From Tubulanus polymorphus (lineage: Eukaryota; Animalia; Nemertea), in assembly GCF_964204645.1 (NCBI RefSeq), contig NC_134028.1, positions 2,232,001 through 2,296,000 of the forward strand: a stretch of 64,000 nucleotides of DNA. Reading direction: 5' to 3'. How positions within the stretch are numbered: position 1 is the stretch's first letter; each line of letters begins with the position of its first letter. The position numbers were made by a program, and so were the translations under genes. The notes beneath the pieces are model-generated. The model had not been told where the DNA came from. It was given only the letters and a program-made list of their open reading frames with translations, and did no database searches. Of the stretch, positions 8,065-20,608 are shown in pieces.

Positions 8065-11000
8065 ACTATTCCAACGCCATCTAGTGTCGATAACGATAAC
8101 CGTAAAACTCTAATCTAACGTCGTGATCATTCACCTGCTGATGAGACTTTCTATGATCGCCGATCGAACTCGTGAAAAAAAGCACATATTCATCAGGATT
8201 GATTTAAACCGAATGAAAATGAAAACCGTTTAACCGAGAAACGTTGTCGTCGTTATTGTCGTGTGAATCTTTTTTACAAACTCTCAGACTTTGTGGATTC
8301 TAGATTCAGAATCAATGATCGATTGAAGTCATATTGTATCGAATATATGACGTCGATTTCTCGTGCAGGAGTTGATTTAATTCACTGATATTCGCACATT
8401 TTTCATTGCTTCCGAAGAACAAAATTATGTAAATTAATGAACACTTCATCCGATCTGGTGACAGAAAAAAAATACGTGCCATCAAGTTTATCGACGAGTG
8501 CCTGAACATGAATGAGTTATTTTATTTCATCGTATTTAACATTGCTTTGTACCGCAGGTTTTATTGGTTAAAGCAGTACTGTTGTAGTGTTTGAGAATAG
8601 TTGCTCTCAATATTTGAAATATTTAAGTTCTCTTATGAGGTTAAGGCCTATTAATGCTATGATAGCAGTCGTGTTTTATTTTTGATCGAAATGTTTCGGA
8701 TATTTCGACTTTTCTCGACTAATTCAGTATTGAAGGTGCTATGCTTAATTAACTAAGTTAATTAACTAAGTTTTTTGCTAATATTATGTTTTATTCCTCT
8801 GTGAATAGTAAAAACATAATTTTGCTATTAATGTTTTTATTTCGTGAGTCTGCGGATATCGGCTGAAAGTATGAGATTGAAAAATTTTATCATGACAAAA
8901 GTTAATTAAATTTTTTACTGTATGCCTCTGAAAATAGACATGGCAATGATGAGATTTTCAAAACGTTAAGATTCCGGTACTTCTTTTACATTTACTAATT
9001 GAATGGTCTTAAATAAAGCTGGTTTTGAATGCACCAAAATGATCTTAGAAGACCAGTTGTCAGTTAAAGTCATGACTGTGCAGTTCGCCATCCAAATGCA
9101 AAAATTATTTGATTTCAAAATACAGGTATCCATTCCTGTAGAAGTGTGTGTGTACTGTATTTCCTACAGTGGACAGAATTTTGGTAAAATAGGTAAATGT
9201 ACGTGAAGGCTTTGTAAATTTTTGTAGGTGCAATTTGTTTAAAGATCTTCTTGTAGAAGATAGAACCTGGTTTTTCAGTCAGTTCGCTGAAAGAATGTTC
9301 CTACAATAGGCATGAAATAAAAGTGTTTCCTGTGACTTTATGATCTCGCAACAAGGTCGGTGGACCCTATGAATTTGATAATGTTGCTACATAAATTGCC
9401 GGTGTTGAAACTGTGCGAAATCTGTGAAAAATGTTGAAAATGAATGACGTGTATCAGTAATCAATGGCAATGCGGAATATCTCGTAATTTTCTGTTGAGT
9501 GCAGATCTGCTGAGTTTCAACGCATTCAAAAACTCGTTCGTATCGGGGTTGAATTATATGCAACACTTTCTTATTTTTTTTTTTCTAGTTTATTTTGTCT
9601 CCCAGAAAAAATAATTCCAACCGTACCCCACAACGACGCGCGCATCTCAAACAAGAATTATTATCTTGCCTTACATTGATTATCGTTATTAACACGTGTG
9701 TGTCGGCACAATTTTGATGACGAAAAAGAAAAGTGTAAATATTTTTGTATAAATTTTTAACATCCGCAAATGTATTTGTGATTTTACTCTTCATATATAT
9801 ATATATATATGTATATTATATATATATATATATATATTGTATTGGATGTATTATATATCATACGGTATATACTAAAAATGCTCTTTTTATCTATAAAAAA
9901 CTAAAACGTCGAAGATTTTCTTTTCAAACAAAAATGATTCTAGTCTTGACGGAGTATGGAAAGAAACTGTTTTGTAAATAATGATGAAATGGTCAGTCTG
10001 TAAAGTGGAACCTCATTACTCCTCGTTATTATGACAAAACCCACGGAACGATTTTTGGCCTCAAATGAGAAAATCTGACTTATTTTAGTAATTCATCTTA
10101 TTGTATATTATATGAGGAACTATCTAGATTTATGTTATGAGTGGGAGTTCTTTTTAAGAGTAATAAATTTCATTACGTACTTGGGTTTTACTAGGTTCAA
10201 GTGCATCCATGCTTGGGAGTACCCCAAAGTTCCAAGTAAGGCAAGGTTTACTGTACTTCATTATTAGAATACTGCTTACCTGTGTGGCAGTCAGGATTGC
10301 ACATTCCGTTGTGAAATTCTAGATGCTGTCTATGACAATAAAATTAGAGATTTTGATTAATTTTTTTCAAAAATATATCCTATATATGATATATAGTAAT
10401 GATAATATATAATGAATATAATATCCACATTATCATAGGTTTCATTGGTTCTACCTCATCGTTTGGTAATTTTAAGACCTATTTTGATGAATGTATACTA
10501 TCGCTGTATTCATTCTGTATGAAGAAAAATATAAGGAATTTACACAAAGACTTATGGTATAATCATCTAGATTAATGATTAAGGTTTTAAATCTAGATTT
10601 GAAATCTCTTAAAAGAATGCTTAGATATTCATATATTACGATATCGCAAAGTTAGTTTAGTTTATACAAAAAAATTGTATGTTTTTCATTTGATTTCTGC
10701 AGTGTTTTAATTTTCGGATGCCGTTTTTCTGACTGAAAAAAAAATTATATACATTTGTGAAGCTGGTACTGATTTCATAAAGATTTGATGCGCAAATATT
10801 TGTTGTAAGATTTTCGCATATGTAAAAATTAAATCTCATGAGCTCCTAATGTGTACATATAGTGTATGTATGTGTTGTCGTTTTGTGCGAGATCCCATCT
10901 TGAAAGCATTTCAGATTGTATTTTGCATAACTATTATGAATGTAGAAATAAATGAAATAAAAAAGTAACTCCTATACTAAAAAGTATGTGTTACTGTTTT

Positions 11001-11923
11001 ATGGATCGACTCAAAAGATTTAAAGCCGGAATGCAAGAATTTAAGCGGCCTCAACTAGCCATGCGGATCAGATAAGACAAGAAGTTATCCATAGTGTTGG
11101 GCTAATATGAATTATATCAAATTTTTGATTATATCTAATAGATTCTAATCATCCAATGCTACAGTGCAATTCAGACCTTGCAAATCTACAGTCAGTGGTC
11201 ACCACCGCGGTAAACCCATGACACCGTCCTCACACTAACTCCAACAGGGTCTGTCTTCATTATCTGCATCCAATTTTGAACCCTTGTGAGCCAGATTGAT
11301 CAGAGTTCAATGCTGAATGTAAACTCTTCCACCGTTTAACTGCCGTGTGAAGAGGATGGGCGTTCTTTAACTCACTCTACCCGACGCACAGAGGTATGAA
11401 AACCAGAACAAATTAATTAAAATTTATTCAATAAATTATTTTATTTTCAATTTTTAAATACATGTACAATCTATTGATATACAACAACAATGTACATAAT
11501 CAGGTATAATATTTACATTTTAACATAAATCAATAGTTTAAATTCAGACTAGAATATTTTCATACAACAATAAATATTTCTTTCTGTATCAACTGACCAA
11601 GATTTCACTGAGCGAAATTGGCAAATTAGAGGCAAAATTCTCATTTAGTGTCACACTTTTAAGGAATCGACAAAGTCATGACAAAAACAGATCTCGAAAA
11701 ATGCAAAATACGAGCTAATGCCAGCGTTACCCTAGTACGTTCACATCATAAAGAAAACCCAAGTTCTTCACAAGTCTTTCTCTCAAGAGTTATTCATAAA
11801 CCATTGGAGCAAAAATAACTCCAGCTGTAAGATCGTAATAGGAAATGCCTTTAAAACGTCTCAGTAAGGTTTTCAGGAACAATGTTGGTTATTTTTTGGA
11901 ATGATAATACAAATTGGAATATC

Positions 11924-14900
11924 TTAATCGGTGCTGATGAGATCCCCGCTGATTTGAGGAACCTCTCCAGCGACCTCGCCGACCTCTTCTAACTCGTCGT
12001 CGTCGTCCTCGTCGTTAAACTCGTTTGATTTATCGTAGGTGAACGTGCTGCGGGACAAATCGACCTCGATCGGAAACACATCTGCTTCTTTCAATACCGA
12101 ATGACAATCCGTATGATATTTAGACATCGCCGAAACGAACCGCTGCAACTGGAATACTATATCTTGTACTGAAAAACAAAAACAAACAACAGAATTCATA
12201 GATGTTCACTTGAATGGTAAATTTCTCGATATCCCTGTAAGTCATAGTTTGTAAGTCATATTTTAACGGCTAAGTTGCACTAGGATTTGATGTCCCAATT
12301 ACGGTAAATCTAATGGCTTAAAGTCACATGTCAATCTTCCTGTTCTCAGCTGATATCTAAACTGTATCATACGCGTACCATGTTTTTGATCTAACAGCTC
12401 GAGTTTAACGAGAACGTCACTTCTCATCTTGGCAAATCGTGCTCGAGCTTCTTGTCGGCAACGTAGAATCAATCTAAAATAGAACACAATCACAGGTTTA
12501 AGTCGAGGCAGCTGAGCTCATAATGATGAAATACCAATCACTTCTTAAATACATGTATTGATGAATTTGATGGTACCAGTAGGATTCCACGTACCTGTAT
12601 TCATAGTTTCCAGTCTCAACCCGATACAGAGGTTCCTGTAAGGCCGCGTAGCTGTATTCTTCATCATCCATTTCTTTCACTTTCAAACAATACGACTGTT
12701 ATAAAAAAATAAAGAAAATGTAGTATAATCGAGCTACCCAGAAACTTATGCCTACCTTAACCTTCAAACCAGCCACTACTTACCAAGTACTCAAACTTTG
12801 CGTCTAGATATTTCTTGATAGTTAGTCTTGTATCAGGTACAGCTTTGTTCAAATAAGTGTTCAGATCGCTGATCATCTAGAAAATAATCTCACAACCTTC
12901 AAAATCACATGAAATTAGCCACACTAGCAAAGAAATTAGTTAATCTAATTCGCTAATTCGTTTAACTAACAAGCAATCTAATAGCAATTAAAACTACTAT
13001 ATACAATTTGCATTTCACATTGATAAAATATGTGCAGAACAGAACACAAAAATATAACGAAATCAAACTAGATGATTTTAATAAGGCTGAAACATCGAAA
13101 ATCAAAATGAGACCACATTGCGAGTCAATGTTCAACTTCCGCTCAAAAGAAAAGGCTTGATTTTTTAATCTTCTCTCCATAACAACTCCACTCATTTATC
13201 TTATTGATTAATCTTTGATTTCTACTAAACTCATATAGAATTTCAGCAGGTAATAACACGACATAGGGTTTCACAGAGACATAGTACTTCAAATAGCCAA
13301 TTATTGATGCTACAATTCTTCTACAATGATCCATATTTCAAAATGAATCATTTCATTCCTAGAATAAACTTCATCTATTTGAAATACTAGCACTAGTTTT
13401 ACCAGGATCATCTCACCACACACAGAGATAAGCCATTTACGGGTGAGTTTATATCGGAATCGGGAAGAGTAGGAGATACGAGAAATTCCCGCCGGTTGAG
13501 AGTGAAGAGCGAGAGAGAGAGAGAGAGAGGGGGGAGAAACGATTCTTACAGGTTTACATTTCTTTAAACAGCTAACAGCGAATCGTTCGATATCTCTGTG
13601 AGCGTCACCGAAATGTGTGAACGCTTTACTGGCGGCGGGTTGTGGTTCGCGTACCCCAATAGCAGCGAATACATCACCAAACGCTGTAAACACAGTAAAA
13701 AACAAAATAATAAAACAATCGCACTAAAAATATCAACTACACACATATAACAGGGTGGCCACTGTTCCCTCACTGTTCCCTGAATCCAATCAATTAACAC
13801 AGTCAAATATGTTAAGACATAGACGGAAACTGTTTGATTTTAAGCGCCACCTGCAATCGCAACAACTTTCCATGACTTTTCCCTGATTTCTATTTAGTGG
13901 CAACCCTGTATAAGAATGTACATGGAGCCACTCATAGTCCAGTTCATATCATATCATTTTAACATAAGGCCTGATTCCAGAGTCAAGTCAAAAATGGGAA
14001 TATATGTATTGATTGATTTCCAATCATCATGCCTTATCTCTGATACTGAATAACTTCACCTATGGGTGGCTCGATGTTTAGATCTAACAAAGAATAACTG
14101 ACAATCCGACAGTAGTGTGCATGTGAATTAATTTCAACAGGCACCCAGTCGTATTGTCAATACTGATGATAATGTACAGGGTTTTCACGAAAAATGTTTA
14201 AAACGATTCCTTGTTAAACTATTTTGTGAATACGGTAGATACATCCTCTTTGGGTTAAAACGAAGAGCAGCAAATAAAAATACATCAAAGCTTTCAATAA
14301 TTCTATACAGGAGAATTTGGTATTAATTAAGCGATTTTCAATTCAACCTTTAAATTACTCTGAATGCACCTATTTTCCAAAGATGTGTGCCTGATGAAAC
14401 ATCTGTATCTGCTGCTCTCTGGTCTCATAAACCCTAAATTGTCGAAGCCGGCTTCATTGGTAGGGGGAATATTCTCGCATTCGGATGAAGAAATTATGAA
14501 TAGCACACTCAGAAACACAAATCAGTCTTAATCAGCTCTTGCAGGGAAAACGATTCTAAGAAAATCAACTAAACGTGTGCATTACATGAAGTTAAAATAT
14601 GGTGACAATTCATAAGTGCAACACTTTTCGCAATAGTCTTTCACACGAAAACAGGGTTCATATTTCCCATGTTCTGAATACACGGAAATCAATTAGGAAT
14701 TTATGAAGTTTGTTTCAAATACAGCGATGAATATTCAATTTGTGTCACGAACCAAGACAACATGCCAATCAAGGACCGTGACGATGATTAAAGGATTTTA
14801 GAGCAAATGGTATTCAAGGTCTACAATTGACCCATTCCCAAGGACTTTGAAGGACCGCTATGAACCGTACAACAACATTCCCATCGCCTGGTCGAAGTCG

Positions 14901-17900
14901 CGATGAAAATCTACAGTGCGCAACTACTGCAGAAAGTGTAGCACGAGTATTCAATGCAGGATCTCTTACAGGTTTAGCCGTTTTCAGCAATCGAATAGCA
15001 AATTTCTCGATATCCCTGTGAGCATTACCAAAAACAGTAAATGCTTCACTCGCCACAGGCTGCGGCTCTCGGACACCGATAGCCGCGAATACGTCTCCAA
15101 ACGCTGAAAATCATTACATTCAAACAAATAGAATTAGTAACAGACAACCTGACTCCATGAAGTCAGTAGACATCCCAGATTTTCCTAAAATTGATAAGAT
15201 TTCGATTTCCATTATTTTGGACCATATTTTTGCGTAGTCAAACTAGCGCTATTACCTTTATGCGTTAACGACAGTTCGAAAAATGCCTTCAGTAATTTTT
15301 TTGTATGTTCCATCAGACCTTGATAGGTTCCCGCTACTTTTTCGAGTTCTTCTAACTTTTTCACCAATCCATCTAAACAAAACACAAAAAGTATGTCGAT
15401 GCCCAATCACTTTCGTCCTTAATTTACTGATTTTTTCTGATAAGACATATTCATTGAAGTACACTAAATAGGCTATTATGATAGAAAAAAATACAAACCA
15501 TTGCACAGAATAGCACGACTGAGACCAAGAGCGTCAGCAGTACCGGAATTCATTGTCTCCACAACTCTATGTTTGACCTTTTTTAGAACTGGAAAAAAAA
15601 TAGTTGAGAAATATTTTTGTGCTCGCTTTATATTAGAACATATAAGTAGATAGATATAATCTTGGAGTAATCATTTGTCACTCCAAGGTGTAGGCCTAAT
15701 TGAGATATGATGTTTAATCTGAGATGAGAGGTGATGCTCCTTCATCTGGCTGAACTTACTGATGTCTAATGTTTTTCCTTGTTTAGGATCAGCATGTAGT
15801 TTGTTGTATTGAATAGTGACATCTCCCTAAATTCAAATACATCAAACAATTGTAACTAATAATAACTACCAATTCACTTTACTCCAGCTAAGCAACTGGT
15901 AATAAAAACGTACTTTAACCGATTGGATCATCCTCGCGACCTCGACTTTTGTTCGACCTTTCACGGATTGACCTTTGACGCCAACGATTTCGTCTCCGGA
16001 AGCAAGCGTAGCATCCTTCGCCGCTGGAGTATTATCGAACACTTGAACGACGTATAAACACGGGCACAAGGGGGCGCCACCGCCAATACTGATACCGATC
16101 AGATTTTGAGAATCTTTGACGAGAGTGACCGAACCTGAGGTAACGGTCATACCCCTGAAAATATATGAAACACATCCTGAATCATCAATCTATACGAACA
16201 TGAAAAAAAACTGTTTATAAATACCGAGGACATTGTTCCACGCGTTTAGCTATTTCCGTGGAGCGGATTTCTAAGTATTTTGGCATTAAATCCATCACGC
16301 TTGTTATATCACTATATACCGGGTCATAATGGTGCCTGTAAACTGTTATTATGCGCTAATAAAGCATTACTAATGAAAACCAATACAATGGAAGTAATAC
16401 GTTTTCACAATATGTAGCCCAACCTATATTTCTGGTCAGACTAACAAATGTCTGGTTCAAATGTTCCAGTGTTTAACCCTTAACCAGTTTGTTGTTTGTG
16501 ACATGGTAGACCTAATTATTTTTCATAGGCCTATTTGGTTTGGTGTCATAAATTGGTGACATTTCACTTTCCGATTTTCGCAGTAACATTTTAGTGGTTC
16601 TTCAGCTATTTTGGCTCTAAACCAGCAGATACGAGAACTGGTATAAAAACCTCTGCCTGGTTTGCCACGTTAGCAAGCTGTAAAATGTTCTGAAATAATG
16701 TCAATTGTTTGGGAAAAATCACATGAATATTTCAAGTTTTGCAACTGTCCTATGGCTGAGAGAACATTGGAAATTTGCTATAAGGCCCAAACTTCAAAAA
16801 ATTCAACTATAGTTTAAATTTTAAGACTTTTAATGATGAAATGATAGAGAAGCCGATGATTTTACATACAATGTGCGAATCAACTAGTGATTAATCAATT
16901 TTCATATATGCAAACTTCTGCATGAAAGTTACACCATTCAACAGCTTGTTACAAACAGCTTCCCCATAGCTTGTAGACCGGTTTCTATCTCTTCATGATT
17001 TTCTCAAAATAATTATTCTAATAATATGTTGTCAAAACCATTTGAGGAATTCTTAGGCAAAACTGGCTAGGGGTTTATTTACTACCATAATTGAACCTCG
17101 GCACCAGCTCTGAGCAAGTGGGCTTAAAAACTTGAATTCTATCCCGATCAATGTCGTCAATTCCTACCAACTTCTTAAAATTGGATTGTTTTTCACAAAG
17201 AATTTTACAAAATCTTAAAAGAATCCTATTGTATCAGCAGACATAAACCCTGTGCTACATCGGGATCGTTGCATTCAAATGAGACTTGGTCCTAAATGAA
17301 CGAAAAAACTTCAGATACATACATATCATCTTCCCAGGGAAGTTGTTCATATTTTGAGGTCGGTGATAATCGATCCATATCATAGGTAGGTACTGGAAAG
17401 TATCCATCATAATGATAGTCGTTGTAATCCATTCTCGGTTCAGTTTTTATTATAGTAACACTGGCAATATGCTACTACGTGTCACAATAAACTCATCTAG
17501 GGTAGAGTACATCCATCCGCTACACGAGCGAAAACCAGATTTGATTTTCAATGGTTAGCTATGAATATGCACCGTGCAACAATAAATCAAAATGTTTGAA
17601 TAGCTACCACAGGTAGACCACGACACATCCACTAACACAAGTCAGTTCAAAGGACAAAAACAACTGCTAATGAACAGTTAGTAACACTTTTTTATCCAAT
17701 GAATGGTAGGTAAAATGCTTTGTGTAACTATCCAGTGACAATCCAGTAACTGACTAACAGTCGAACACTGTGTACGATGTTGTGTATCAACCGATGTCAA
17801 CTTTCAGGTCAATTATCATAACAGAATAAACTAACAGTCACTGTCAGTAGAGGAGATATATTCAACCAATACAATATGTAGCAGTTGTTAGATTAAATAC

Positions 17901-19890
17901 TATGGCACAGCTGAACGAACGAACAGCTATAATGTGGGTTGAGAGGGGCGTAGACATTATTTACCGCTGGATATGAGAACAGCTGCGAAATCAAACAATC
18001 ACTGGTGACAGTTGGACGACCCCCCAAATAGACTAAAAGTGAATTGCTTCATGGACCGATAAACAAGAACAACCCATGAAAAAATGCCTATAGGCCTATA
18101 TATATTCATGTACTATGCTTGACCTTATAATTCACTTACCAAATTAAAGGAAACTTAATAAGTGGAATTAGTTTCAGTGTTACTTAAGCCAATCAAAAAC
18201 TTTAAATCAGTCCTCGAGTAATTAGCTGCACTAATTAGCTAGAATTAGTTTATTTTGTCTAATTAATTAGAGGTAAATATCTGTGTTACCTTAAGATTAA
18301 AAGGATTTAATTTGGGGGGGGCCAATTGTCTGGGGGGGGCAATTGTCCAGGGGATACCGTCCGGTATTTCTTATCTGAAGCCAAGTGCACACAGACCGTA
18401 AAAAACACGAAATAATGAATAAATTGACAATTTCTTCTTGTAGTCAATAGTCATCTTGTGTTCTCCTTCGTCCATTTATTTTCGATTTTTCAATTTTTCA
18501 AATTCCCTCATTAAGATGATTTTCTTTTTTTAATTTCTTAAATGAATATCTTAATAGTCTTTGAATCAAGAATGGTTAGAGATCGGCTAGTTTTAAGCCT
18601 AACTACAGGTGTTCTTGAGACCGCAGACAATTAGATCGGATCTTGACTTTAGTGACCTTAGTTAGGCTTTAAATTGAGTGATTTTTATGACTGAGCTAGA
18701 CCTAACTGATCCAGGGTCCAATCTAAGGGATGAAAGTCACTTGCCCAGGGGGCAAGCATATCTGAAATTTGGCTTGCCCCCCTCCAAAATTTACTTGCCC
18801 TACACAGGCAGTCCGATTGGTGGCACTATCATTCGTTGTATCGAGTGGGAAAAAAGCTTTGTGACATAAAATTGCACTAGCCCGGGGGACAAGTGATAAT
18901 GATAACCTACTTGCCCTAATGAGAATATACTTGTCCCGGGCAATCGGACAAGTGCTTAGATCGGACCCTGCTGATCCCATTTAAATTGCTTACTGAGTTC
19001 CCATTCGAACAGCATACTAAACTGAATAAGTCGATTCAATCTCCCAAACAAACACGGCAATTCATGTGACGCTGAGCTGTATCTACGTGAGTTCACCCAG
19101 TCCGAGTGGCGCCAGTTCACGACACTCCCTATACTGCATGTACTGAGAGATTGCATGATATACCATCACTAGCACTAAGGTTCTTAGTAAAAACAGTGAC
19201 TAGAGAGATGCCGATTTCGTCCATGTTATACTACAGTGGACAAGTGCAGTGGTTTAGAGCTAAAGACATATCATCGCCATCATCATTGTCAGCATTAGAC
19301 GAGAAGATTCACAATATCCGTGTATGATGATAACGAGAGAAATCCCACAATAACGAAGCCAAGAAAAATTCTATATCAGAATGATTATGTTTGAGGAATA
19401 CCTGATGATGGCTTACAGTTGTTAGCCATCATCAGGAGTACTGAAGGCGTACTGTATTCTATCAGTACGCCTGATGATAGCTAACAGGTGATAGCTGAAA
19501 CGTCGCTCCTCAAATATAATCATTCTGATATGGAATTTTTCAATCTTGGCTTCGTTATTGTGGGATTTCTCTCGTTGTCATTGTCAGCATTTCACAACTC
19601 ACTCATAATTCTAAGTTCTACAGTTCCTAATTAGAATCTTCAACATGATGAATGAAGGGAACTTAATCGTAGGAATAAGGGCAAGAAAGTGACAATTAAT
19701 AAAGAAAATTTGAATTTGAACAAACCCGGAAGTGAAACACGGAAGTAAATTGACGCTATTTTTTACACAAACGGCTTCTAAGTTAAATAAACATAATTTC
19801 AATGAATTAGGACCATATTTCGTTACTTCAATGTTTATTCTATTCATCTATCGCTTACATTTTATCCTCTTCTAATTCATAGTCCATCAT
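11924..19890 (-). CDS. PICK1: PICK1 (PDZ + BAR/arfaptin-homology protein). Exons 19859-19890, 15914-16154, 15760-15826, 15499-15588, 15256-15372, [14970-15103 or 13550-13683], 12784-12876, 12595-12695, 12379-12473, 11924-12168
   Basis: MMDYELEEDKM-GMTVTSGSVTL..NLIGISIGGGAPLCPCLYVVQVFDNTPAA (PDZ); ADALGLSRAILCND; LNKAVPDTRLTIKKYLDAKFEYLSYCLKVKEMDDEE; YRVETGNYEYRLILRCRQEAR; acidic C-tail. All introns are GT-AG and the phases join. Confidence 0.97.
13550..13683 (-). CDS. PICK1: PICK1 alternative exon 6B (134 nt), paralogue of 6A
   Basis: (A)FGDVFAAIGVREPQPAASKAFTHFGDAHRDIERFAVSCLKKCKP; acceptor ttacag, donor gtaag; same length and phases as 6A. Confidence 0.92.
13751..13908. mobile_element. Small MITE in the PICK1 intron just upstream of exon 6B
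   Basis: CAGGGTGGCCACT...AGTGGCAACCCTG, with TATAA on both sides. Confidence 0.7.
14970..15103 (-). CDS. PICK1: PICK1 alternative exon 6A (134 nt)
   Basis: (A)FGDVFAAIGVREPQPVASEAFTVFGNAHRDIEKFAIRLLKTAKP; acceptor tttcag, donor gtaag; phase 1 to 0. Confidence 0.92.
18712..18970. mobile_element. MITE with CAGGG termini; partial second copy at ~63625-63716
   Basis: TIR CAGGGTCCAATCTAAG / CTTAGATCGGACCCTG, with CTGATC on both sides. The 3' ~90 bp (GATAATGATAACCTACTTGCCCTAATG...) recur near the end of the window. Confidence 0.8.
19297..19577. mobile_element. Fold-back insertion, probably derived from a Penelope-like retroelement end, with 14-bp TSD
   Basis: TCATTGTCAGCATT at 19283-19296 and 19578-19591; ~70-bp inverted arms at ~19325-19397 and ~19507-19580; internal CTGATGA...GAAACGTC motif. 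Related fragments at ~45433-45551 and ~51866-51918. Confidence 0.7.
19463..19510 (+). ncRNA. Minimal hammerhead-ribozyme-like core
   Basis: CTGATGA (19471-19477), T, stem AGCTA/TAGCT, GAAA (19497-19500), CGTC. Stem I is only about 2 bp in this copy. Confidence 0.5.
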
Positions 19891-20608
19891 TTTGAAGGTT
19901 GATTTGTCTTGGCACCCGAAATGTAGACCCTTCTGCAGACTGTGCAGATATAGTTATCGGAGGCTTTAGAGCCTAGTAAGACTGGTGAGGATTCTTACAC
20001 GACAAAAGTCCGACGTGATAAAATAGTAACGTTAGTTAGCGGTAAACCTACTGTAAACGATGAAAATATCCGATCGTGAAACTAAACGGTAGAAAAACTT
20101 CTGACTTCAGAATTAAAAATTAAGTTGTTGAATTATTTTAGTTGATGTGCATTCTTACCAACAGCATATCATAGAATAGCAACGTAAAACTCTCGTCAGT
20201 TCCGTTATGAGTTTGCATTTATATTGAGGCACGAGATGGCTGTGGACTTAAGACCTCTCGTGATACACTCTTAATCTCTGCAGAATTTTACTGTAACAGC
20301 GATTGTCCCAATATCAAATTTCCATTCCTAGTCATAATATTCTACTTATCGATAATGTCTTACTGATAACTAAATAGAATTCATATTTACACATTATTTT
20401 ATCATTTTATAGGTCTAAATTCAGATTTTGGGAAATGATCTTGTCACGTCAATTATCGGAATGACAGCTTCATCTGATTTTGAACTGCCGAGTTATTCTA
20501 TCTTTAAAATAGTGATTTTTGGTTGAAGCTGGTGGTGTCAACTTATAAAACGGTGTAGAACTATTGTTTGTGATTTTGACATAAGGAACTATTTAATTTT
20601 TTGCTGAA

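What the first reader, a model, noticed from the sequence alone, without database searches (positions are those of the whole stretch)
13476..14480. Long-range intronic RNA duplex that brackets PICK1 exon 6B
Seen: on the pre-mRNA (minus) strand, AUGCGAGAAUAUUCCC (14480-14465, upstream of 6B) pairs with GGGAAUUUCUCGUAU (13490-13476, ~60 nt past the 6B donor). That is 15 bp with one bulge. Its single non-Watson-Crick position is a G-U wobble on the transcribed strand and would be a mismatch on the other. GCCGG (14452-14448) can add 5 bp with CCGGC (13495-13491). Known: competing intronic base-pairing controls mutually exclusive exons in Dscam, 14-3-3zeta and Mhc. Inference: the duplex loops out 6B when 6A is chosen. 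The (CU)n tract right after the 6B donor (13511-13529) could bind a PTB-type regulator.
Basis: partly seen in the sequence, partly recalled or inferred. Interest (0 to 1): 0.8.

Follow-up and report, generated by a model that had tools for sequence, protein, structure and literature searches.

The report
Chance-level stem beside PICK1 twin exons
In a ribbon worm's PICK1 gene, two short intron stretches on either side of one of two alternative exons are complementary, but no more so than shuffled or neighbouring DNA, so the stem is likely a chance match, while the either-or exon pair itself is real and of an ordinary kind.

Summary
The complementarity is there as described: 15 bp, one bulge, one G-U, -18.3 kcal/mol, and it is the best helix between the two introns. 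It is not beyond chance: 105 of 250 shuffled intron pairs and 35 of 60 same-geometry genomic pairs reach it, and the opposite strand does better (-20.0). The 20-bp extension is borderline (23 of 375 shuffles, 10 of 60 real). Conservation could not be tested, as no orthologous intron was obtainable. The exon pair is real: the gene matches Tubulanus polymorphus PICK1, whose two NCBI isoforms carry 6A or 6B. Including both or neither gives early stops. Spliced contigs of two studies skip 6A. One post hoc lead: the downstream arm also pairs with exon 6A itself and with a 20-nt copy of it in intron 9 (14 of 763 shuffles). I put a function for the stem at about one in three. This scan noted a PICK1 exon pair before, in another genome (e1-7908752).

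The parts
14970..15103 (-). PICK1 exon 6A, 134 nt, part of the arfaptin/BAR domain; the more ancestral-looking copy
   Evidence: AG/GT ends; in NCBI isoform X2 = P0001; PF06456 hit; residue types against 79 other segments
13550..13683 (-). PICK1 exon 6B, 134 nt, 34 of 44 aa identical to 6A; the form seen in spliced contigs
   Evidence: in NCBI isoform X1 = P0002; exon 5-6B joint in runs X2 and X5; exon 5-6B-7 on one contig of X2
14465..14480 (-). upstream arm S1 of the proposed duplex, 490 nt after the 6A donor; single-copy; one allele differs (C to U at 14467, keeps a wobble pair, duplex -15.4)
14448..14452 (-). GCCGG, possible 5-bp extension; lies in a local palindrome that folds on itself (14456-14452/14447-14443, p 0.75)
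13473..13495 (-). downstream arm D1 (13490-13476) with CCGGC (13495-13491); also complementary to exon 6A and to the intron 9 copy
15000..15016 (-). segment of exon 6A that competes for D1 (-16.6 with one defect, -18.5 with two); preferred partner in the fold of 15256-13380 (p 0.67-0.86)
13498..13540 (-). pyrimidine tract with (CU)n right after the 6B donor; the only (GA/CT)n dinucleotide array among 71 tandem-repeat rows of the window
13417..13436 (-). second site D2, complementary to intron 14042-14029 (-17.4) and to exon 6B 13604-13591 (-17.2); post hoc
14029..14042 (-). S2, intronic partner of D2; best inter-intron helix once accessibility is counted (net -10.5, at the control median)
12207..12241 (-). 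35-nt copy (86%, 20 nt exact) of exon 6A 15022-14988 inside intron 9; its exact core is the part complementary to D1 (-21.2)
13751..13908 (.). high-copy miniature transposon-like insert with terminal inverted repeats, inside the would-be loop
   Evidence: inverted repeat I22; contig depth near 10,000 against about 30 around it; ends
15235..15251 (-). stretch after the exon 5 donor complementary to 13404-13388; would bracket both exons (-18.5; 16 of 500 shuffles, uncorrected)

Best explanation
Exons 6A and 6B of this PICK1 gene are an old duplicated pair of 134-nt exons in which using both or neither gives an early stop that would likely trigger decay, and the 15-bp intron duplex is most likely a chance complementarity that does not set the choice. 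Shown: equal exon lengths, intact splice sites, early stops, spliced contigs with 6B, and chance-level pairing energy. Inferred: 6B is the default because its 3' splice site has a long U-rich tract, whereas that of 6A is purine-interrupted and predicted to sit in a local hairpin; the two donors are identical to +6. A splicing protein, probably one binding the pyrimidine tract after the 6B donor, shifts the choice towards 6A in some cells, and nonsense-mediated decay removes the mistakes.
For: Energy at chance: 105 of 250 and 34 of 250 shuffles, 35 of 60 real pairs, 23 of 375 and 10 of 60 for the extended form. Opposite strand as good or better for the short form. D1 is locally occluded (opening 6.8 kcal/mol); net -7.3, 5th of 12; pair probability 0.03-0.06 in the two larger folds. 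Pairing would still leave about 1.1 kb between the 6A donor and the exon 7 acceptor (coordinates). Two repeat insertions lie in the same intron. Both-included and both-skipped forms stop 303 and 245 nt before the last junction; frameshift plus decay is a recognised route to exclusivity (PMC5740500 passages; PMC6071210 introduction). dN 0.146 with pS 0.87 between the copies. Splice-site sequences and accessibility.
Against: The helix is the top-ranked one between the two introns, and 20 consecutive bases of D1 pair in the extended form. The layout (weak upstream exon, strong and predominant downstream exon, arms flanking the downstream exon) matches serpent, where such a stem is needed for the upstream exon (PMC4691838). 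In the 14600-13400 fold it forms with p 0.84. D1 and D2 each have a partner both in the intron and in a duplicated exon more often than shuffles do. A null on energy cannot exclude a short functional stem; the serpent stems were found by conservation. The protein part of this explanation is itself untested.
Confidence: 0.55

Rival explanations
1. One reading: S1 pairs with D1, loops out 6B and so lets the weaker exon 6A join exon 7, as serpent stem II does.
For: Best inter-intron helix; extension to 20 bp, -25.6, reached by 23 of 375 shuffles; arms single-copy; the one allele seen in an arm keeps a wobble pair; layout and splice-site asymmetry as in serpent.
Against: Chance-level energy; poor accessibility; D1 prefers exon 6A or local partners in larger folds; the allele costs 2.9 kcal/mol; no matching upstream stem stands out (intron 5 x intron 6A-6B: 108 of 300 and 26 of 300 shuffles).
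Confidence: 0.2
2. A competing network: D1 switches between the coding segment of exon 6A (masking it, 6B default) and the intronic arm S1 (freeing 6A, looping out 6B), with D2 doing the same for the homologous segment of 6B. It would descend from an exon-intron hairpin whose exonic arm was copied in the duplication.
For: D1 has both partners at -16.6 or better: 14 of 763 shuffles, 1 of 56 real windows. With only intron 6B-7 shuffled: 8 of 350 for 6A, 2 of 350 for 6B, 2 of 350 for both; 7 control segments from constitutive exons give only -10.2 to -13.1. The fold that includes 6A pairs D1 with 6A. An exact 20-nt copy of that same 6A segment lies in intron 9 (2 matches found, 0.02 expected). 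Arm duplication is a published route to competing stems (PMC6071210).
Against: The statistic was chosen after seeing the data, among roughly ten region pairs and several measures, so the corrected odds are weak. Each helix alone is ordinary (6A: 104 of 500; 6B: 50 of 500). 6A and 6B are homologous and D1 and D2 share a six-base core, so the tests are not independent. The published model copies an intronic arm, not an exonic one. The intron 9 copy has a simple neutral reading (templated insertion next to a 14-nt tandem duplication).
Confidence: 0.13
3. A different helix does the work: 15251-15235 pairs with 13404-13388 and brackets both exons, biasing the ratio as ATE1 R2-R5 does.
For: -18.5 kcal/mol, 16 of 500 shuffles (25 of 500 with two defects); p 0.97 in the fold of 15256-13380.
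Against: One of four region pairs tested in that call, so not significant after correction; it pairs the two ends of the folded fragment, which favours it; no conservation data.
Confidence: 0.07
4. 6A is a silent, decaying copy, so there is no choice to regulate.
For: The spliced contigs of two studies join exon 5 to 6B across 6A, and no joint to 6A was listed (13 joints were not shown).
Against: NCBI isoform X2 carries 6A. Open frame and canonical sites. dN far below synonymous divergence. 6A holds the common residue more often than 6B. Both variants listed in 6A (15045, 15102) fall on third codon positions and keep the amino acid (read from the sequence). Contigs drop rare forms.
Confidence: 0.05

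Closest known systems
Drosophila serpent exon 4.1/4.2 cluster, downstream stem II (Us-Dd) (PMC4691838; abstract, first quarter of Results, Discussion and passages read)
   Same: Two duplicated exons; one arm between the exons and one after the second; downstream exon has stronger splice sites and predominates; skipping shifts the frame.
   Different: Serpent's elements are conserved across Drosophila, were proven by compensatory mutants, and come with an upstream stem I; its docking site is described as upstream of exon 5. Here conservation is untested, no upstream stem stands out, and the downstream arm is 60 nt after the 6B donor and about 600 nt before the next acceptor.
Human ATE1 exons 7a/7b, R1-R5 (PMC7797038; search-listing abstract and passages)
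   Same: Two-exon cluster; a long-range stem that shifts the ratio without enforcing exclusivity; competing local pairings.
   Different: ATE1 elements are conserved and tested by mutants and antisense oligos; its competing stems hide 3' splice sites. None of this is shown here.
Downstream-docker systems of 14-3-3zeta, Mhc, MRP1 and Dscam exon 4/9 (as described in PMC6071210, parts 1 and 3 of 5 read; the primary papers were not seen)
   Same: A site in the intron after the cluster pairs with a site inside the cluster.
   Different: Those have several intronic selectors competing for one docker. Here there is one intronic partner, and the only competitor is a coding segment of exon 6A.
PICK1 isoform pairs of Branchiostoma (four taxa; NCBI proteins)
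   Same: Equal-length isoforms, identical outside a stretch that starts at the same exon junction in the BAR domain.
   Different: The swapped stretch covers about 30 rather than 45 residues, and 6A/6B are closer to each other (34 of 44) than to either lancelet version (20-30 of 44), which suggests independent duplications. Their introns were not available.

Membership tests
Tandem-duplicated mutually exclusive exons | Adjacent homologous exons of equal length and phase | tested here: met
   134 nt each, 94 of 134 nt and 34 of 44 aa identical
Tandem-duplicated mutually exclusive exons | Junctions from each exon that bridge the other | tested here: inconclusive
   exon 5-6B across 6A seen in runs X2 and X5; 6A-7 not seen in contigs; 6A form exists as NCBI model X2, whose read support I did not see
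Tandem-duplicated mutually exclusive exons | No productive double inclusion | tested here: met
   both-included form stops in 6B, 303 nt before the last junction; neither-included form stops in exon 7
RNA-pairing (docking/selector, serpent stem II type) control | Complementary intronic arms flanking the exon to be skipped | tested here: met
   14480-14465 / 13490-13476
RNA-pairing (docking/selector, serpent stem II type) control | Pairing stronger than shuffled controls | tested here: not met
   105 of 250, 34 of 250; 35 of 60; extended form 23 of 375 and 10 of 60
RNA-pairing (docking/selector, serpent stem II type) control | Arms conserved across species, with compensatory changes | not testable with these tools
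   no genome held; only runs of the same organism label; 13 distant loci show no arm match; one within-species C to U change keeps a wobble
RNA-pairing (docking/selector, serpent stem II type) control | Two or more selectors competing for one docking site, or a second (upstream) stem | tested here: inconclusive
   D1 also pairs with exon 6A and an intron 9 copy; joint test 14 of 763, post hoc; no outstanding upstream stem
RNA-pairing (docking/selector, serpent stem II type) control | Disruptive mutations change exon choice and compensatory ones restore it | not testable with these tools
   needs a minigene
PTB-regulated exon | CU-rich element near the exon | tested here: met
   41 of 46 nt pyrimidine after the 6B donor; PTBP1 prefers CU-rich motifs (bioRxiv 10.1101/2022.08.09.503273, abstract and passages)
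PTB-regulated exon | Binding of PTB and a change in splicing on its loss | not testable with these tools
   needs binding and knock-down data

The most novel reading that the evidence does not exclude
The site after exon 6B is a true docking site whose competing selectors are the coding sequence of exon 6A itself and an intronic decoy, with a twin site doing the same for exon 6B and a third copy of the selector kept in intron 9: an RNA switch in a ribbon worm built by duplicating an exon that was one arm of a hairpin.
Probability: 0.12. Interest if true: 0.6.

Novelty: new member of a known kind. Interest (0 to 1): 0.25.

Why it matters
If the stem works, it extends RNA-pairing control of mutually exclusive exons, proven mainly in arthropods and in human ATE1, to a nemertean gene. 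In the competing-network form it would show that an exon's own coding sequence can be a selector. As the evidence stands it is a caution: a clean 15-bp match between two introns of 1.3 and 0.7 kb is what chance gives about half the time. The firmer biology is that PICK1's BAR-domain exon has been duplicated into swappable forms in ribbon worms and lancelets, and that the ribbon-worm form seen in RNA (6B) is the derived one, with two lysines at positions where 76 of 79 other segments have E or T, plus two cysteines.

Tried and rejected
Unbounded helix search: chains of 50-200 bp grow in any sequence, and 300 of 300 shuffles passed -18.3, so it was replaced by searches limited to one or two defects. 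Own genome: none held. Sequencing runs: 5 listed, one organism label, none on record as RNA by library (no RNA holder listed); X2 and X5 show spliced joints. Lack of contig cover over 6A in X2 and X5 is not used as evidence of silence. The lay tool skipped 13498-13542, so length variation of the (CU)n run was not seen. Orthologous introns: 13 metagenome loci are distant animals; 0 of the 7 that span exons 5-7 as genomic DNA show a second exon 6; the other 6 are transcript-like (3), lack introns around this exon (2) or end just after it (1); no match to the downstream arm within 2 mismatches in 13 of 13. Isoforms of Lineus, Lingula and molluscs: 84 listed of 121 members of 10 clusters show one exon 6 version per species; isoforms could sit in other clusters. 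Rfam: 4 weak matches in 11400-20000, none near a gathering score or on the arms. Idea that intron 9 holds a whole decayed exon 6: flanks of the 35-nt core do not align convincingly (212 of 2000 shuffles upstream, 52 of 2000 downstream). G-U strand asymmetry as evidence: rejected, see above. PDB holds PICK1 PDZ structures but only arfaptin-2 for the BAR part; no fold was run. Earlier scan notes by place, relatives and sequence: nothing. Literature: PICK1 + mutually exclusive (73 papers, 30 listed), PICK1 + mutually exclusive exons (5, 3 listed), lophotrochozoa + exon duplication + RNA structure (1), PICK1/BAR/splicing (52, 15 listed) and Tubulanus polymorphus (19, 15 listed): by titles and abstract openings none describes this exon pair or stem; most subscription papers are not in the library. 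Stem energies for serpent are in supplements that I did not open, so I have no published benchmark for -18.3.

Full report
Setting. The region is a spliced animal gene on the minus strand. Its PDZ exon (15914-16144) is 100% identical to two NCBI proteins named PRKCA-binding protein-like (PICK1) of Tubulanus polymorphus, a ribbon worm. Isoform X2 (P0001) contains exon 6A and isoform X1 (P0002) exon 6B; joining the window's exons reproduces each. 6A (15103-14970) and 6B (13683-13550) are both 134 nt, 70% identical in DNA and 34 of 44 in protein, and both match the arfaptin/BAR profile. Between them dN is 0.146 and synonymous sites are saturated (pS 0.87), so the duplication is old and both copies have been kept under selection. 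Including both stops in 6B, 303 nt before the last junction; including neither stops in exon 7, 245 nt before it. By the 50-nt rule (recalled) both would be decayed. Spliced contigs of runs X2 and X5, from two studies, join exon 5 to 6B across 6A, and one X2 contig runs exon 5-6B-7. No joint to 6A was listed.

The observation. Every stated coordinate holds. The duplex has 14 Watson-Crick pairs, one G-U and one bulged base: -18.3 kcal/mol, against -15.3 on the other strand; with GCCGG/CCGGC across a 12-nt bulge it is -25.6. Both arms are single-copy: depth is about 30 in run X1, against near 10,000 for a transposon-like insert at about 13751-13908 and about 245 for a repeat near 14718-14806.

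Is it more than chance? I searched all helices between intron 6A-6B (1286 nt) and intron 6B-7 (672 nt) with nearest-neighbour energies. With two defects it is -21.1, reached by 34 of 250. The opposite strand gives -20.0 and -21.4, and 13 helices in the gene are stronger. Of 60 real segment pairs of the same geometry from both strands of the window, 35 reach -18.3. Allowing one large bulge, the 20-bp form is reached by 23 of 375 shuffles and 10 of 60 real pairs, and the opposite strand gives -24.1. Counting the cost of opening local structure, the helix drops to net -7.3, fifth of 12 candidates, while the best helix of the 60 control pairs has median -10.0. Its pair probability is 0.06 in a fold of 15256-13380, 0.03 in 14969-13380 and 0.84 in 14600-13400, so it is not robust. 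This does not exclude function: the serpent stems were found by conservation (PMC4691838).

Conservation. No genome is held, the runs found are all of one organism label, and the 13 metagenome loci are too distant. Within the species, an X2 contig over 13813-14649 differs at 4 of 837 bases, one of them in the upstream arm (C to U at 14467), which keeps a U-G wobble but costs 2.9 kcal/mol. A second haplotype covering 13328-13497 has no listed change in the downstream arm. Neither observation discriminates.

What else D1 pairs with. In the fold that includes 6A, the downstream arm pairs with exon 6A itself (15016-15001, p 0.67-0.86), at -16.6 to -18.5. The same 6A segment has a 35-nt copy, exact over 20 nt, in intron 9, which pairs with D1 at -21.2 against -21.5 for 6A, -18.8 for the homologous 6B segment and -27.8 for the extended S1 in the same calculation. 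A second site, D2 (13436-13417), likewise pairs with an intronic stretch (14042-14029) and with 6B (13604-13591). A joint test (one site with a partner in both the intron and the exon) is reached by 14 of 763 shuffles and 1 of 56 real windows for 6A (sum statistic: 29 of 763, 4 of 56). With only intron 6B-7 shuffled it is 8 of 350 for 6A, 2 of 350 for 6B and 12 of 350 for either; 7 constitutive-exon segments score far lower. I chose this test after seeing the data, each helix alone is ordinary (104 of 500, 50 of 500), and the two tests share a core. I treat it as a lead, not a result. A third helix, 15251-15235 / 13404-13388, brackets both exons (16 of 500 shuffles, uncorrected).

How choice most likely works. 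The donors of 6A and 6B are identical to +6. The 6B acceptor follows a long U-rich tract; the 6A acceptor's tract is interrupted by purines and is predicted to lie in a local hairpin (opening 4.8 against 3.3 kcal/mol). That fits 6B as the default. The tract after the 6B donor is unusual for this gene (41 of 46 pyrimidines against 17-28) and is the only (GA/CT)n dinucleotide array among 71 tandem-repeat rows, so it is a fair candidate for a CU-binding protein; PTBP1 prefers such motifs and can act either way depending on where it loops RNA (bioRxiv 10.1101/2022.08.09.503273, abstract and passages). This step is inference only. My odds: chance stem with protein-driven choice and decay of errors 0.55; simple loop-out 0.20; competing network 0.13; the bracket helix 0.07; silent 6A 0.05.

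Comparison. It would work like serpent stem II (PMC4691838) or ATE1 R2-R5 (PMC7797038, passages). It cannot be filed as a member: the strength test failed, and conservation and mutation were not testable. The exon pair is an ordinary member of the duplicated mutually exclusive class (criteria in PMC5740500, passages). It is not universal in PICK1: one version per species in 84 listed members of 10 spiralian clusters and no second copy in 7 genomic loci. Four Branchiostoma taxa have equal-length isoform pairs that differ from the same junction onward; among 213 of 299 proteins parsed, the only pairs with identical flanks and a swapped segment were the Tubulanus pair and the Branchiostoma set; the remaining pairs (one flank difference) were between separate shark and ray records. 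Five literature searches listed no paper on this pair or stem.

Verdict. Sequence observation confirmed; interpretation unproven and not favoured by energy; at best a new member of a known kind. Interest 0.25.

Noticed in passing
window 12207-12241 (intron 9, minus strand): 35-nt copy of exon 6A 15022-14988, exact over 20 nt, next to a 14-nt tandem duplication at 12236-12264; far beyond chance. Either a templated insertion or a third partner of D1; pairing with D1 would bracket exons 7-9 (289 nt).
   Followed up: partly
window 13550-13683: 6B, the form seen in spliced contigs, is the derived copy: E to K and T to K at positions where 76 of 79 other segments keep E or T, plus L to C and A to C, so it adds positive charge and two cysteines to the BAR domain.
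   Followed up: partly
P0091/P0205, P0201/P0204, P0203/P0094, P0202/P0092: Four Branchiostoma taxa have PICK1 isoform pairs that swap about 30 residues starting at the same exon junction.
   Followed up: partly
L001 1859-1948 and 2007-2096: Another animal's PICK1 has two tandem copies of the 90-nt exon 4, about 58 nt apart, both with AG/GT ends.
   Followed up: no
L009 5795-5893, 6129-6224, 6305-6400: Another animal's PICK1 has three tandem copies of exon 9; with L001 this suggests PICK1 exons are duplicated repeatedly.
   Followed up: no
window 13751-13908: High-copy miniature transposon-like element with terminal inverted repeats and an apparent 5-bp target duplication, ending about 70 nt before the 6B acceptor.
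   Followed up: partly
window about 19858-19890 and about 17320-17430: Two alternative first coding exons give the two N-termini of the NCBI isoforms; the X2 contig joins the 19858 exon to the PDZ exon and carries 6B, a combination in neither model.
   Followed up: no
window 19327-19581 and about 18575-19150: Nested long inverted repeats (38 and 35 bp arms plus an inner hairpin) and a very high-copy stretch in the first intron, probably transposon relics; the weak Rfam microRNA match there is far below its gathering score.
   Followed up: no
window 14419-14400 / 14282-14263 and 14939-14922 / 14638-14621: Two helices within intron 6A-6B (-22.3 and -19.2) are stronger than the reported duplex and form with p 0.9 or more; not tested against shuffles.
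   Followed up: no
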